From: Escherichia phage JN01
Length of the DNA: 64,000 bases
Reading direction: 5' to 3' (one strand)
Sequence record: MN882542
Positions 15,530 to 33,617 of this stretch are shown piece after piece. Position 1 is the stretch's first letter. Each line of letters begins with the position of its first letter. The position numbers and the translations under genes were made by a program. Below the pieces are notes generated by a model. The model had not been told where the DNA came from. It made no database searches and saw only the letters and a list, made by a program, of their open reading frames with translations.

Positions 15530-15605
15530 AGTCCAAGTAGCTTATATGGTTAAAGCGCGTGTCTGAAAAACATGAGAAGAGGGTTCAAATCCCACTGGAC
15601 TACCA
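15530..15605 (+). tRNA. tRNA-Phe (anticodon GAA)
   Basis: Anticodon arm CGTGT-CTGAAAA-ACATG; T-loop GGGTTCAAATCCC; CCA encoded. Confidence 0.65.
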
Positions 15606-15621
15606 ATTTCAAAGGTGCTTA

Positions 15622-16356
15622 ATGAAAGAGATGACAGAACAAGGTAAGGAGATTTTTAGTCTCTTAAAAACCGGTAGAGGGTTTTCTAATCCCCTTATTA
15701 CTGGTGCAGCAGTTCTCGGTGGAACCGTAGCTGCCTCTACATCACTTGTAAGCTCTATTAGCTCTGTAGCAGACCCTACAATAAAGGATAAACTTGTTGC
15801 TGCTGGACTTACAACAGTTCTGCTTAATAGCTTTACAACGAGTCTGACAAGCACTACATCAACTACTAAGACACTGACAGATTACGGTCAAAAGTCCATT
15901 GATGAGTTTTCATCACGTATGCAGGTAGCAAAAGGGTATTCCAATGTTATGGGTGCAGCAGGAGAGCAAGTTGGTTGTACACCATTTAGTGGTATTATGG
16001 GTGTTGCTACAGAGTACGGTCAAAAAGCTATTGACACAATTAACAGTACACTAGACGGTGTTAATGATGTATTAAGTGACTTACAAGATGCTATTGATAA
16101 AGGTCTTGATACTGTTTCTGATTTAGCTAACCAAGCTGTTAGCAAGATTAATGAAGGTATCTCGAAGATTACAGCTTATGCAGATGAAGTTGTGCAGATG
16201 ATTGAAGAAGAAGCTGCCCTTATTGCAGAGTACCTTAAAACGAATATCAATGGGTTCTTAGCAGGTATCTTACCAGACTGGTTTGATGATGCTTGTAAAA
16301 CTGGTGTAATTGATACTATTGCAACACCAGAAATGAAGAACGCATTACAGAAATAA
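15622..16356 (+). CDS. hypothetical Ser/Thr-rich protein with N-terminal hydrophobic segment, flanked by tRNAs
   Basis: Track start overlaps tRNA-Phe, so start moved to ATG 15622; stop abuts tRNA-Ser; hydrophobic LITGAAVLGGTVAASTSLV. Confidence 0.5.
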   Translation: MKEMTEQGKEIFSLLKTGRGFSNPLITGAAVLGGTVAASTSLVSSISSVADPTIKDKLVAAGLTTVLLNSFTTSLTSTTSTTKTLTDYGQKSIDEFSSRMQVAKGYSNVMGAAGEQVGCTPFSGIMGVATEYGQKAIDTINSTLDGVNDVLSDLQDAIDKGLDTVSDLANQAVSKINEGISKITAYADEVVQMIEEEAALIAEYLKTNINGFLAGILPDWFDDACKTGVIDTIATPEMKNALQK

Positions 16357-16357
16357 T

Positions 16358-16450
16358 GGAAGATTAACCCTAAAAGGTAAGGGAGCAGTTTGCTAAACTG
16401 CCAGTAGCTGAGAAATCGGTGTACCAGTTCAAGTCTGGTATCTTCCTCCA
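16358..16450 (+). tRNA. tRNA-Ser (anticodon GCT), long variable arm
   Basis: 93 nt; perfect acceptor GGAAGAT/ATCTTCC; anticodon arm GCAGT-TTGCTAA-ACTGC; CCA encoded. Confidence 0.75.
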
Positions 16451-16454
16451 ATTT

Positions 16455-16530
16455 GAATCCGTGACAGAAATGGCTATGTACCTGTCTGCAAAACAGGTTT
16501 ATAAGGGTTCGAGTCCCTTCGGATTCTCCA
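16455..16530 (+). tRNA. tRNA-Cys (anticodon GCA)
   Basis: Perfect acceptor GAATCCG/CGGATTC; perfect anticodon stem CCTGT/ACAGG with loop CTGCAAA; CCA encoded. Confidence 0.8.
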
Positions 16531-25704: not shown

Positions 25705-27057
25705 ATGTGGAATCCAATTGTTAATGTAGATATTACATTGAACACCGCAGGAACTACAAGAGAAGGTTTTGGGCTACCACTATTTTTAGCTTCAACAGAT
25801 AACTTTGAAGAAAGAGTCCGTGGTTACACTTCCTTAACTGAAGTTGCTGAAGATTTCGATGAAAACTCTGCTGCATATAAGGCTGCTAAACAACTTTGGA
25901 GTCAGACTCCTAAAGTAACCCAGCTTTATATTGGTAGACGTGCTATGCAGTACACTGTATCAATTCCTGACTCTGTTACTGAAAGTACCGATTATTCTTT
26001 AACTGTAGCTGTTAGAGGTGGAGTTTCTCAACCATTCCAGTACACTTCACAGTCAGAAGATACTGCTGAGAAGGTGTTACAGCAGCTTAAAACACAGATT
26101 GAAGCAGAACCTTCTGTAAAAGACCTTGTTACTGTCAATGTAACTGGTGCTGGCGGTTCAGCAACAATGGTAATCACCAAAGCTGGCGATAATGACTTCG
26201 TGAAGGTTACTACTACAGCACAAACAGTGTCAATTGCAAGCACAACTGCTGACACAGCATCGACTGCTCTGGCAGCTATTGAAGCTTATTCAACTGACTG
26301 GTATTTCATTGCAGCAGAAGACAGAACTCAACAGTTTGTCTTAGCAATGGCTTCTGAGATTCAAGCTCGTAAGAAGATTTTCTTTACAGCTAACTCTGAT
26401 GTAGCAGCACTGCAAGGTACAGAATTAGCCAGTGCAAATGACGTTCCAGCACAACTTGCTAAGAATAAGTACACTCGTACAGTTTGCTTGTGGCATCACA
26501 CAGCAGCAGAAGATTATCCAGAAATGGCATACATTGCTTATGGTGCTCCATATGATGCAGGTTCAATTGCTTGGGGTAACGCACAGTTAACTGGTGTAGC
26601 TGCTTCTCTACAGCCATCTAATCAGAGACCTCTGACAAGTATTCAGAAGTCAGCTTTAGATGCACGTCACTGTAACTTTATTGACCTTGATGGTGGTGTT
26701 CCAGTGGTTCGTAGAGGGATTACTTCTGGTGGGGAATGGATTGATATCATCCGTGGTGTTGACTGGTTAGAATCAGACCTGAAAACTTCTCTGAGAGACT
26801 TGCTAATTAACCAGAAGGGTGGTAAGATTACTTATGATGATACTGGTATTACCCGTATTCGTCAAGTCATTGAAACCTCTCTGCAAAGAGCAGTCAACAG
26901 AAACTTCCTGTCATCTTACACAGTTAATGTTCCTAAAGCCTCTCAAGTTGCTTTAGCAGACAAGAAAGCTCGTATCCTGAAAGATGTTACCTTCGCAGGT
27001 ATCTTAGCAGGGGCTATCTTGGATGTTGACTTGAAAGGTACAGTGGCTTACGAATAA
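25705..27057 (+). CDS. tail sheath protein (putative)
   Basis: 450 aa gene directly upstream of a 148 aa tube-like gene and the chaperone and tape-measure genes. Confidence 0.6.
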   Translation: MWNPIVNVDITLNTAGTTREGFGLPLFLASTDNFEERVRGYTSLTEVAEDFDENSAAYKAAKQLWSQTPKVTQLYIGRRAMQYTVSIPDSVTESTDYSLTVAVRGGVSQPFQYTSQSEDTAEKVLQQLKTQIEAEPSVKDLVTVNVTGAGGSATMVITKAGDNDFVKVTTTAQTVSIASTTADTASTALAAIEAYSTDWYFIAAEDRTQQFVLAMASEIQARKKIFFTANSDVAALQGTELASANDVPAQLAKNKYTRTVCLWHHTAAEDYPEMAYIAYGAPYDAGSIAWGNAQLTGVAASLQPSNQRPLTSIQKSALDARHCNFIDLDGGVPVVRRGITSGGEWIDIIRGVDWLESDLKTSLRDLLINQKGGKITYDDTGITRIRQVIETSLQRAVNRNFLSSYTVNVPKASQVALADKKARILKDVTFAGILAGAILDVDLKGTVAYE

Positions 27058-27072
27058 TAGAGGTAAATTGGA

Positions 27073-27519
27073 ATGGCTATGTATCAGCAATATTCCCCTA
27101 AAGACGTTGTGTGTAGCTGGAATGGTATTGCCATTGAAGGCTTTGCCCCAGACTCATTCTTACGTCTACAGAGAACATCACCACTTGTGACACCAGTTGT
27201 AGGTGCAGGTGGTCAAGTTGCTCTGACAAGAAATGCAGACAAGACAGGTACTATTGAGATTGAGCTAATGCAGACTTCTCTCTCTAATCAGATGCTTTCT
27301 GCAATTCAAGCTAAACAAGACAATATGGAACTTGAAGAAGATATCTCTTCTAACTTCGTAATCTACGACCCATCAGGCTCTGTTCTGGCAACTGGTATTA
27401 ATGCTTGGTTGCAGGAACTACCACAGATTGAACTTGGTCGTGACCAGAACTCTAAGACTTGGATTTTTGGTTGTGAGAAGCTAGACTACACTTCTACAAT
27501 TCCAGCGTCAAGTGTTTAA
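27073..27519 (+). CDS. tail tube protein (putative)
   Basis: 148 aa; AGAGGT Shine-Dalgarno; followed by a strong terminator. Confidence 0.55.
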   Translation: MAMYQQYSPKDVVCSWNGIAIEGFAPDSFLRLQRTSPLVTPVVGAGGQVALTRNADKTGTIEIELMQTSLSNQMLSAIQAKQDNMELEEDISSNFVIYDPSGSVLATGINAWLQELPQIELGRDQNSKTWIFGCEKLDYTSTIPASSV

Positions 27520-27531
27520 TAAATCCTATAA

Positions 27532-27564
27532 GGGGGAGACTTTAAAAGGTCTTCCCCTTTTTTG
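27532..27564 (+). terminator. rho-independent terminator after sheath and tube genes
   Basis: GGGGGAGAC-N8-GTCTTCCCC followed by TTTTTTG. Confidence 0.7.
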
Positions 27565-27592
27565 TTTCTTTTAAAAGTATTAAGGAATCACA

Positions 27593-27991
27593 ATGAAAAC
27601 AGAATCTAGAGTAATTAATGGTAAGAAAGTAAATATCGTTCTGCTTGGGGCAAGAGATGGTATTAAGATGTCTATGAAGTTGGGTAAAATTGTTGTTCCA
27701 ACCTTTGCACAGATGCTGTCAAGTTTGACTGATAAAGATAAGAAAGAAGCTCCGATGGTTCCGTTTAAAGAACTTGTTGAAGCTTGTTTTGACAGAATTG
27801 AAGAAATTAACCTTGAAGAAATGGCTACCCTGTTATTTCAAGGGGCAACTGTTGATGACTTCCCACTTAATATTGATACATACTTCCAAGCAAACTATGG
27901 TGAATTTATTGATTACTTAGCATTTGCGCTGGAGGCAAACTTCGGAAGTTTTTTCGAAGCAAGCATTTTCAAAAGCCTAACTTCTCAGTAA
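27593..27991 (+). CDS. tail assembly chaperone (G-like)
   Basis: 132 aa gene directly upstream of the tape measure; slippery site near its 3-prime end. Confidence 0.55.
   Translation: MKTESRVINGKKVNIVLLGARDGIKMSMKLGKIVVPTFAQMLSSLTDKDKKEAPMVPFKELVEACFDRIEEINLEEMATLLFQGATVDDFPLNIDTYFQANYGEFIDYLAFALEANFGSFFEASIFKSLTSQ
27949..27955 (+). other. programmed -1 ribosomal frameshift site (slippery heptamer T TTT TTC)
   Basis: In-frame X XXY YYZ heptamer; the -1 frame runs without a stop into ORF 27994-28233. Confidence 0.55.
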
Positions 27992-27993
27992 AC

Positions 27994-28232
27994 ATGGGTA
28001 ACACTCTACAGACACCACTAACTGATGCTGCTGTAGAGGCAACCTATGAAGAAGCAGACGAGATGAAATTTGTGCTTGCTATTTATGGTATGGAAGGGTG
28101 TAAAGAAACACTTGACCAACTCTTTGCTATGACATTCTCTGATTTATTATCATTGAGACAATTTCTTGAAATTCAGAGGTCGTATAAAGAGGAAATTGCT
28201 TACAACGAACTTAGAAGAGCAGGAAAAATGTA

Positions 28233-28233
<1 letters not shown>
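27994..28233 (+). CDS. tail assembly chaperone T segment (expressed as G-T fusion by frameshift)
   Basis: In the -1 frame relative to 27593-27991; stop overlaps the tape-measure ATG. Confidence 0.45.

Positions 28234-33617
<5,384 letters not shown>

What the first reader, a model, noticed from the sequence alone, without database searches (positions are those of the whole stretch)
27593..28233. Programmed -1 frameshift joining the two tail-assembly chaperone ORFs
An in-frame slippery heptamer T TTT TTC (27949-27955) sits 36 nt before the stop of the first chaperone ORF, and the -1 frame is open from there into ORF 27994-28233. This matches the conserved G/GT chaperone frameshift upstream of tape-measure genes in tailed phages.
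Basis: partly seen in the sequence, partly recalled or inferred. Interest (0 to 1): 0.45.

Follow-up and report, generated by a model that had tools for sequence, protein, structure and literature searches.

The report
Tail-chaperone frameshift in Felix O1-like phage
This is the well-known ribosome "slip" that tailed phages use to make a small amount of a longer tail-assembly chaperone from two overlapping genes; it is real here and very well conserved, but GenBank records of near-identical phages already annotate it.

Summary
The window is a Felix O1-like E. coli myophage (Felixounavirus, 98-99% identical to published genomes). T_TTT_TTC (27949-27955) is in the zero frame of a tail assembly chaperone gene (27593-27991, Pfam Phage_TAC_15). 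The -1 frame is open from 27913 to the stop at 28231-28233, directly before the tape-measure gene. It is not chance: of 67 in-frame slippery heptamers in the window, only this one opens a long -1 extension (92 codons). All 92 relatives with the two-frame layout keep T_TTT_TTY in phase, down to about 25% protein identity. Synonymous variation collapses at the site. The one relative without the heptamer (a Buttiauxella chromosomal element) encodes the long form as a separate in-frame gene, and that protein aligns across the predicted junction (E=5e-13). The best explanation is a lambda G/GT-type programmed -1 ribosomal frameshift giving a 213-aa fusion. No conserved downstream RNA structure was found. 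A Shine-Dalgarno-like GGAGG sits 13 nt upstream, is conserved against codon bias, and may stimulate the shift as in dnaX. The feature is already known: phages Mushroom and Mordin carry joined CDSs, and the Moogle, Michonne and Mijalis papers report it. No fusion protein has been shown experimentally for this group. Interest is low.

The parts
27593..27991 (+). ORF1: short tail assembly chaperone (G-like), 132 aa, the product of standard decoding
   Evidence: Pfam PF21822 Phage_TAC_15, E=1.2e-19, 71.5 bits against a cut-off of 22. phrog_1613 'tail assembly chaperone', E=8e-49.
27931..27935 (+). Internal Shine-Dalgarno-like GGAGG, 13 nt upstream of the heptamer; candidate 5' stimulator (inferred)
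   Evidence: GAGG lies at the identical 13-nt spacing in 30 of 37 non-redundant relatives. The Glu codon there is GAG in 30 of 34 against 13 expected. GAG before G is used in only 27 of 182 cases in the window's structural genes. The spacing falls in the 9-14 nt range reported for -1 stimulation (PMC5009743).
27949..27955 (+). Slippery heptamer T_TTT_TTC in the zero frame (Phe120-Phe121)
   Evidence: It is conserved in phase in 92 of 93 relatives examined.
27955..28233 (+). -1 frame segment read after the shift (T-like part: 92 codons plus stop). It starts RSKHFQKPNFSVNMGNT... and ends at the stop overlapping the tape-measure ATG.
   Evidence: The segment is conserved as a protein domain across clades. 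It aligns to an in-frame homologue in L092.
27593..28233 (+). Predicted trans-frame fusion (GT-like), 213 aa: residues 1-121 from frame 0 plus 92 from frame -1
   Evidence: Mushroom and Mordin carry a joined CDS over the same span. BLASTP against the L092 201-aa protein runs through the junction, E=5e-13.
27994..28233 (+). ORF2 as usually annotated (79 aa from ATG 27994); probably not an independent gene
   Evidence: phrog_4963, E=2.8e-55. There is no SD-like motif before the ATG. Most relatives have no ATG at this position.
27530..27569 (+). Strong intrinsic-terminator-like hairpin plus T-run between the tube gene and the chaperone gene (context)
   Evidence: 13-pair stem. Phage AYO145A annotates a rho-independent terminator at the same place.
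27073..27519 (+). Tail tube gene (context; the likely binding partner of the T part, by analogy with lambda)
   Evidence: PF11681 and phrog_280. The homologue is called the tail tube in Sf14.
28233..30461 (+). Tape measure protein gene (context)
   Evidence: PF20155 TMP_3 and phrog_4036.
15530..15605 (+). Phage-encoded tRNA-Phe(GAA), which can decode both codons of the shift site (relevance inferred)
   Evidence: ARAGORN.

Best explanation
This is a lambda G/GT-type programmed -1 ribosomal frameshift in the tail assembly chaperone gene of a Felix O1-like myophage. Most ribosomes translate 27593-27991 and release the 132-aa chaperone. A minority, with tRNA-Phe on UUU (P site) and UUC (A site), slip back one base on U_UUU_UUC. 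They then read 27955-28233 in the -1 frame and make a 213-aa fusion (...ANFGSFF-RSKHFQKPNF...GKM). By analogy with lambda, the shared N-terminal part binds the tape-measure protein and the extension recruits the tube protein; this step is inferred. Many short and few long molecules would then coat the tape measure during tail assembly. The shift is probably helped by an internal Shine-Dalgarno-like GGAGG 13 nt upstream pairing with 16S rRNA, as in dnaX, rather than by a downstream RNA structure. Shown here: the sequence anatomy, its conservation, the dual-coding signature, and that the fusion corresponds to a real protein elsewhere. Inferred: ribosomal rather than transcriptional slippage, the exact junction, the efficiency, the role of the SD-like element, and the binding partners.
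For: Anatomy and gene context:
- The anatomy and phase are confirmed.
- The gene order is sheath, tube, TAC, -1 ORF, tape measure.

Uniqueness in the window:
- Only 1 of 67 in-frame heptamers leads to a long -1 ORF, and only 1 of 26 Phe-Phe dipeptides is slippery.

Conservation in relatives:
- T_TTT_TTY is in phase, with the -1 frame open 30-93 codons past the zero-frame stop, in 10 of 10 GenBank relatives found by tblastn. These span Suspvirus, Mooglevirus, Kolesnikvirus, Yersinia and Pectobacterium phages and Vequintavirinae at 28-30% identity.
- The same holds in 80 of 80 IMG/VR loci and in L093 and L094.
- Phe120 and Phe121 are invariant in the protein alignment.
- Between Felixounavirus and Kolesnikvirus, whose chaperone proteins are 40% identical, the only DNA-level match is 41 nt around the site, at 92.7% identity.
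- Third-codon-position identity rises from 0.42 to 0.86 at the site.

The long form needs the shift:
- Most relatives have no ATG from which to start the -1 part independently.
- The -1 products align as a conserved domain.
- L092 lacks the heptamer (TCA TTC TTC) and instead has a separate in-frame G'-T gene. That protein aligns through the predicted junction, E=5e-13.

SD-like element:
-; spacing rule from PMC5009743.

Published support:
- UUY A-site codons and all-pyrimidine heptamers are frameshift-prone in E. coli (PMC4066793).
- Mass spectrometry of particles of the Mooglevirus Sf14 detected the ORF2 homologue gp42 (PMC11821841).
- Prior annotation and publication exist.
Against: - No experiment shows the fusion protein in any Felix O1-like phage.
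- The Sf14 proteomics reported the ORF2 homologue but not the ORF1 homologue. That is not what a fusion as the sole source would most simply predict.
- In this genome an ATG (27994) lies 2 nt after the ORF1 stop, so re-initiation could also express the downstream part.
- No significant or conserved downstream stimulator was found: z-scores ranged from +1.2 to -1.8, and the consensus fold energy was -0.23 kcal/mol.
- The 80 IMG/VR loci were picked by a peptide pattern that required Phe-Phe. Only their codon choice, phase and frame openness are independent evidence.
- The statistics are not corrected for shared ancestry.
- A weaker U_UUC tetramer at 27967-27970 is a possible alternative junction.
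Confidence: 0.88

Rival explanations
1. There are two independent genes. ORF2 is translated on its own from ATG 27994 by termination-reinitiation coupling (TAA-ac-ATG). The heptamer merely encodes Phe-Phe, and no fusion is made.
For: The ATG lies 2 nt after the ORF1 stop. Most GenBank records annotate two separate CDSs. Sf14 particle proteomics listed the ORF2 homologue as detected and the ORF1 homologue as not detected.
Against: There is no SD-like sequence before the ATG. In most relatives the first ATG in the -1 frame lies 28-74 codons after the shift site or is absent, yet the heptamer and the open frame are universal. Synonymous-site conservation starts at the heptamer, not at the ATG. 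The in-frame L092 homologue aligns across the junction, including the residues encoded upstream of the ATG. Phe-Phe is otherwise encoded non-slippery in this genome, in 25 of 26 cases.
Confidence: 0.05
2. The long form arises by transcriptional slippage. RNA polymerase adds one extra U on the T6 run, and standard translation of that mRNA subset then gives the same fusion.
For: A homopolymeric T run of 6-8 is conserved. A weak hairpin (27929-27945) directly precedes the run, and the terminator scan flagged it. Sequence alone cannot tell the two routes apart, because both give the same protein.
Against: Productive bacterial slippage is described for runs of about 9 A or T (PMC5009743), and here the run is 6. 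The run is always in X_XXY_YYZ phase: the base before the first Phe codon is T in 92 of 92 relatives with the two-frame layout. Phase matters for tRNA re-pairing but not for a polymerase. The upstream hairpin is not supported by covariation: 76% of cells pair against 67% in a shifted control, with no compensatory changes. The conserved upstream element is a fixed-distance GAGG, which suggests action on the ribosome.
Confidence: 0.06
3. It is coincidence: a chance heptamer beside a chance open frame.
For: In-frame heptamers are common (67 in the window). A 26-codon overlap would hold one by chance in roughly 9% of cases (derived from the counts).
Against: See the conservation, dual-coding and natural in-frame homologue results above.
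Confidence: 0.01

Closest known systems
Phage lambda gpG/gpGT and the conserved tail-assembly-chaperone frameshift of dsDNA tailed phages (Levin 1993; Xu, Hendrix & Duda 2004, as cited in PMC5009743 and PMC4591319)
   Same: Two overlapping ORFs lie between the major tail/tube gene and the tape-measure gene. [quoted passage not shown] The layout predicts many short and few long products that share an N-terminal domain.
   Different: The heptamer is U_UUU_UUC; from my own knowledge, not checked in a paper here, lambda uses G_GGA_AAG. The chaperone belongs to Pfam PF21822 and shows no detectable sequence similarity to gpG. The phage has a contractile tail. The product ratio and the binding partners have not been measured.
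Annotated frameshifted 'tape measure chaperone' of Felix O1-like phages Mushroom (KP143762), Mordin (KT363872), Moogle, Michonne and Mijalis
   Same: It is the same gene pair. In Mushroom the DNA is 98% identical, and the joined CDS spans the equivalent of 27593-28233. The papers state a -1 translational frameshift.
   Different: Nothing substantive. Those records give no experimental proof and do not discuss stimulatory elements. Most other Felixounavirus records still annotate two separate genes.
E. coli dnaX -1 frameshift (A_AAA_AAG with a 5' Shine-Dalgarno-like stimulator and a 3' stem-loop)
   Same: An internal SD-like sequence lies at a spacing within the 9-14 nt range that stimulates -1 shifting; here it is GGAGG at 13 nt.
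   Different: The slippery heptamer is different. There is no conserved 3' stem-loop. The expected efficiency is low rather than the roughly 50% of dnaX. The stimulatory role here is inferred only.
Buttiauxella noackiae chromosomal element (JPRU01000001, locus L092) with separate G and G'-T genes
   Same: It has a homologous chaperone (PF21822), a homologous T-like domain, and the same position before a TMP_3 tape-measure gene.
   Different: The long form is encoded by its own in-frame gene, with a duplicated and diverged G domain (31% identity). The heptamer is absent (TCA TTC TTC) and the -1 frame is closed.

Membership tests
G/GT-type tail assembly chaperone programmed frameshift | A pair of ORFs located between the major tail (tube) gene and the tape-measure gene | tested here: met
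   Tube 27073-27519, ORF1 27593-27991, ORF2 27994-28233, tape measure 28233-30461.
G/GT-type tail assembly chaperone programmed frameshift | The upstream ORF is a tail assembly chaperone | tested here: met
   PF21822 at 71.5 bits against a cut-off of 22; phrog_1613 E=8e-49.
G/GT-type tail assembly chaperone programmed frameshift | The downstream reading frame overlaps the 3' end of the first ORF in the -1 (or +1) frame | tested here: met
   The -1 frame is open from 27913 to 28233, a 79-nt overlap. The +1 frame is closed.
G/GT-type tail assembly chaperone programmed frameshift | An in-phase slippery sequence (X_XXY_YYZ) lies inside the overlap | tested here: met
   T_TTT_TTC at 27949-27955.
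G/GT-type tail assembly chaperone programmed frameshift | The slippery site and the two-frame layout are conserved in diverged relatives | tested here: met
   92 of 93 relatives keep both. The single exception has an in-frame GT gene instead.
G/GT-type tail assembly chaperone programmed frameshift | The downstream part lacks its own translation start | tested here: inconclusive
   This genome has ATG 27994 without an SD-like motif. Most relatives have no ATG near that position.
G/GT-type tail assembly chaperone programmed frameshift | The fusion product is detected, at a low ratio to the short product, and is required for tail assembly | not testable with these tools
   Only indirect evidence exists: Sf14 gp42 (the ORF2 homologue) was detected by MS, and an in-frame natural homologue spans the junction.
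dnaX-type stimulated -1 frameshift | An internal SD-like sequence 9-14 nt 5' of the shift site | tested here: met
   GGAGG at 27931-27935 with a 13-nt spacer; conserved against codon bias. Function was not tested.
dnaX-type stimulated -1 frameshift | A stable stem-loop or pseudoknot a few nt 3' of the shift site | tested here: not met
   Folds are no better than shuffles, and the Ounavirinae consensus energy is -0.23 kcal/mol.
Programmed transcriptional slippage | A long homopolymer run (about 9 A or T in bacteria) | tested here: not met
   The run is T6 here and T6-T8 in relatives. The threshold is taken from PMC5009743.
Felixounavirus (Ounavirinae) | Near-identity of DNA to classified members | tested here: met
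   98-99% identity over 2 kb to many Felixounavirus genomes, including AYO145A, a classified species.

The most novel reading that the evidence does not exclude
The frameshift in this chaperone family (PF21822) may be driven by a dnaX-like 5' stimulator rather than a 3' RNA structure. The candidate is an internal Shine-Dalgarno-like GAGG/GGAGG held at exactly 13 nt upstream of U_UUU_UUY across very diverged phages, against the local avoidance of GAG-G. I found no mention of such an element in the papers I read on tail-chaperone frameshifts. If it acts this way, it would set the G:GT ratio.
Probability: 0.45. Interest if true: 0.3.

Novelty: already known. Interest (0 to 1): 0.15.

Why it matters
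The biology is textbook and the site is already annotated in sister genomes, so the main value is practical. Most Felixounavirus records, including RefSeq entries such as NC_028825, still list two separate 'tail assembly chaperone' or 'hypothetical' genes, and a few call them 'head closure protein'. They could be corrected to a joined CDS at T_TTT_TTC. Two by-products are modestly useful. First, a conserved SD-like element at dnaX-like spacing suggests how a low-efficiency shift is tuned without a downstream structure. Second, a natural relative has replaced the frameshift by gene duplication and lost the slippery codons. That is a clean comparative argument that the heptamer is kept only for recoding.

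Tried and rejected
- **Downstream stimulatory structure.** I folded 60, 90 and 120 nt after the site and 81 nt around it. None beat the shuffles convincingly (z-scores +1.2 to -1.8). RNAalifold on 8 Ounavirinae gave -0.23 kcal/mol and essentially no covariation. Some GC-rich metagenomic relatives have clade-specific hairpins 7-9 nt downstream (L070 z=-2.5), but these are not shared.
- **Hairpin enclosing or preceding the site.** Neither the hairpin enclosing the heptamer (27940-27959) nor the weak one before it (27929-27945) is conserved or supported by covariation.
- **Solved structures.** A profile search of the PDB with the chaperone alignment found nothing.
- **Family matches for the T part and the fusion.** NCBIfam has no model for ORF1, ORF2 or the fusion. 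Pfam has none for the T part.
- **Exact look-up of the fusion.** The predicted 213-aa fusion is not in the protein collection. ORF1 and ORF2 fall in one 90% cluster, which hints that fused members exist.
- **In-frame fusions by homology search.** The search with the fusion returned only representatives of 124-136 aa and no in-frame fusions. The Buttiauxella case emerged only from looking at the genes next to one of those hits, P0100.
- **VpaE1 virion proteome.** The table that could show whether ORF63/64 were detected is an image and could not be read.
- **Bacterial genome scan.** It returned a single locus.
- **Literature.** Searches found no experimental test of this frameshift in Ounavirinae.

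Full report
**What the window is.** A 2-kb stretch around the finding is 98-99% identical to dozens of Felix O1-like myophages of E. coli, Salmonella and Shigella: 296 records matched, most of them Felixounavirus. The matches include the classified species Felixounavirus AYO145A. The local gene order is tail sheath (25705-27057; DUF3383, phrog_205), tail tube (27073-27519; PF11681), ORF1 (27593-27991), ORF2 (27994-28233), tape-measure protein (28233-30461; PF20155, phrog_4036), and then Dit-like and baseplate genes. ORF1 is a tail assembly chaperone (Pfam PF21822 Phage_TAC_15, E=1.2e-19; phrog_1613, E=8e-49). ORF2 matches phrog_4963 end to end (E=2.8e-55) and has no Pfam family.

**Checking the observation.** The sequence has T at 27949-27954 and C at 27955. 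With ORF1 codons starting at 27593+3k, the site reads AG**T TTT TTC**, that is X_XXY_YYZ in phase and encoding Phe120-Phe121. Eleven sense codons and TAA (27989-27991) follow. ORF2 is in the -1 frame relative to ORF1, and that frame is open from 27913 to the stop at 28231-28233, while the +1 frame is closed. A tandem slip therefore gives a 213-aa protein ...EANFGSFF|RSKHFQKPNFSVNMGNTLQ...AGKM. The coordinates and the description are correct.

**Is it more than chance?** Within the window I took 88 non-overlapping ORFs and found 67 in-frame X_XXY_YYZ heptamers.
- Only this one leads into a long -1 read: 92 codons, 80 beyond the zero-frame stop. The runner-up passes its stop by 8 codons.
- TTTTTTC is depleted in the window, with 14 found against 26.4 ± 4.9 in shuffles.
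- Of 26 Phe-Phe dipeptides, 21 start with TTC, and this is the only one encoded T_TTT_TTY. The genome avoids the slippery pattern everywhere except here.

**Comparative evidence.** Ten GenBank relatives were chosen by BLAST, not by motif. They are AYO145A, Mushroom, SUSP2 (Suspvirus), Mordin and Silverhawkium (Mooglevirus), phiEa21-4 (Kolesnikvirus, 40% protein identity), Yersinia phage P778, Pectobacterium phage Wc4, and two Vequintavirinae (A5-4 and Av-05, 28-30% identity). All have TTTTTTC in phase and a -1 frame open through to just before the tape-measure gene.
- Eighty IMG/VR loci all have T_TTT_TTC (71) or T_TTT_TTT (9), with the -1 frame open 30-93 codons past the zero-frame stop.
- Caveat: those 80 were retrieved with a peptide pattern that demanded Phe-Phe. 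Only the codon choice, the T before the first Phe codon and the open frame are independent evidence. Given the 1-in-26 usage seen in the window, that remains highly non-random.
- Two further loci found by other routes agree: L093 from a sequencing-run assembly and L094 from an Erwinia MAG.
- Between Felixounavirus and Kolesnikvirus, the only DNA-level match in an 801-nt query covering this region (window 27500-28300) is a 41-nt stretch (window 27938-27978) at 92.7% identity, centred on the heptamer.
- In a codon alignment of eight Ounavirinae, third-position identity is about 0.42 across the gene. It rises to 0.73-0.86 in the ten-codon windows covering the heptamer and the codons after it. This is the expected signature of two frames being read.

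**The downstream part needs the shift.** In Felixounavirus, Suspvirus and Mooglevirus an ATG lies just after the ORF1 stop. In the other relatives the first ATG in the -1 frame is 28-74 codons after the shift site, or absent. Several records accordingly annotate nothing there, for example phiEa21-4 and Wc4. The -1 products of 35 non-redundant relatives nevertheless align as one conserved domain. ATG 27994 has no SD-like motif in front of it.

**A natural control.** One homologue, P0100, lies on a 1.88-Mb Buttiauxella noackiae contig (L092).
- Its chaperone gene ends ...ENFGSFFKAEIAKGV, with Phe-Phe encoded TCA TTC TTC. That is not slippery, and the -1 frame is closed.
- Directly downstream is a separate 201-aa gene, followed by a TMP_3 tape-measure gene.
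- The 201-aa protein has a diverged second copy of the chaperone domain (31% identical to gene 1, E=7e-10), joined in frame to a T-like domain.
- BLASTP of the window's predicted trans-frame fusion against it gives 30% identity over 132 residues (E=5e-13). The alignment runs straight through the junction: ANFGSF--FRSKHFQKPNF against ENFGVFLSFVVKPFVKPDF.

So the fusion corresponds to a real protein. Where it has its own gene, the slippery codons have been lost.

**Stimulatory elements.** No downstream structure stands out. Folds of 60-120 nt after the site score no better than shuffles, and the consensus fold of eight Ounavirinae is essentially zero.

Upstream there is a perfect GGAGG at 27931-27935, 13 nt before the heptamer.
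- GAGG sits at exactly that spacing in 30 of 37 non-redundant relatives, and 16 of these have GGAGG.
- It arises from a conserved Glu codon followed by Ala or Val. That Glu is GAG in 30 of 34 cases against 13 expected from local usage (Poisson-binomial P about 4e-10, not corrected for relatedness).
- In the window's structural genes, GAG before a G is used in only 27 of 182 cases.
- The review by Atkins et al. gives 9-14 nt as the SD-to-site spacing that stimulates -1 shifting, as in dnaX (PMC5009743).

I therefore think a 5' SD-like stimulator is plausible, though it is untested. It is absent from Kolesnikvirus and a few other relatives.

Sharma et al. report that in E. coli UUN A-site codons, homogeneous ZZN codons and all-pyrimidine heptamers are the more shift-prone classes (PMC4066793), which fits U_UUU_UUC. 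The phage also carries its own tRNA-Phe(GAA) within a 25-tRNA cluster.

**Rival explanations.**
- *Independent translation of ORF2 by re-initiation.* This is contradicted by the missing ATG in most relatives, by where synonymous-site conservation begins, and by the in-frame homologue, which covers residues encoded upstream of the ATG.
- *Transcriptional slippage on T6.* Sequence alone cannot exclude it. However, the run is short compared with the roughly 9-nt runs described for bacteria, and the strict X_XXY_YYZ phase and the fixed-distance GAGG point to the ribosome. A weak hairpin before the run has no covariation support.
- *Chance.* The comparative data reject it.

**What is already known.** GenBank records of Salmonella phage Mushroom (Felixounavirus, 98% identical here) and Citrobacter phage Mordin carry a two-piece joined 'tape measure chaperone' CDS over exactly the equivalent span. 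Meda and Maleficent show two chaperone CDSs over ORF1 alone, which implies the same joined annotation. [quoted passage not shown] Most other records, including RefSeq NC_028825 and NC_042075, list two separate genes.

**Experimental status.** The only data I found are from the Sf14 (Mooglevirus) structure paper. Its Table 1 lists gp42 (FDI99_gp115, the ORF2 homologue) as detected by mass spectrometry of particle preparations, and gp41 (the ORF1 homologue) as not detected (PMC11821841). This shows the -1 frame part is translated, but not how. Detecting only that part is a small oddity and is left unexplained.

**Verdict.** It is an ordinary member of a well-known class, already annotated for sister phages, so interest is low. 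The conserved SD-like element and the Buttiauxella 'frameshift replaced by a second gene' case are the only mildly new points.

Noticed in passing
window 27931-27935: An internal GGAGG lies 13 nt upstream of the slippery heptamer. GAGG is conserved at the same spacing in 30 of 37 diverged relatives, against a local avoidance of GAG before G (27 of 182). It may be a dnaX-like 5' frameshift stimulator.
   Followed up: partly
L092 3001-3986 (Buttiauxella noackiae JPRU01000001, 1.88-Mb contig): A prophage-like element has a non-slippery chaperone gene followed by a separate in-frame gene that fuses a diverged chaperone domain to a T-like domain. The frameshift appears to have been replaced by gene duplication.
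   Followed up: partly
window 10875-16530: There is a cluster of 25 tRNA genes on the + strand. It includes tRNA-Phe(GAA) at 15530-15605, which can read both codons of the shift site. Whether phage tRNA supply affects the shift is unknown.
   Followed up: no
window 27530-27569: A 13-pair GC-rich hairpin plus T-run lies between the tube gene and the chaperone gene. Phage AYO145A annotates it as a rho-independent terminator. It would lower transcription of the chaperone and tape-measure genes relative to sheath and tube.
   Followed up: partly
window, all ORFs: Phe-Phe dipeptides are encoded TTC-first in 21 of 26 cases although TTT is the commoner Phe codon (463 against 327). TTTTTTC is about two-fold depleted against shuffles. 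This suggests genome-wide avoidance of slippery T runs.
   Followed up: partly
Shigella phage Sf14 NC_042075 29825-30462 (L091): Published particle proteomics lists the ORF2 homologue (gp42) as detected but the ORF1 homologue (gp41) as not detected. This is unexpected if the only source of the T part is a G-T fusion that leaves the tail. It may be sampling noise, a retained or cleaved T part, or independent translation.
   Followed up: partly
public records matching window 27593-28233: The annotation is inconsistent or wrong in several records. ORF1 or ORF2 is called 'head closure protein' (C600M2, SUT_S820, VpaE1_ev78) or 'tape-measure protein' (BPSELC-1). Near-identical Felixounavirus sequence is filed under 'Campylobacter phage A132' and Staphylococcus hyicus assemblies, probably through contamination or mislabelling.
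   Followed up: no
window 27967-27970: A U_UUC tetramer (codon TTC preceded by T) lies 12 nt downstream of the heptamer, inside the overlap, and is also conserved in Ounavirinae. It is a possible minor alternative shift site that would give a fusion with a slightly different junction.
   Followed up: no
L049, L062, L070, L080 (IMG/VR loci), 7-9 nt after the heptamer: GC-rich metagenomic relatives carry clade-specific stable hairpins right after the slippery site (for example L070, -26.6 kcal/mol, z=-2.5). The enterobacterial phages have none, so different lineages may use different stimulators.
   Followed up: partly
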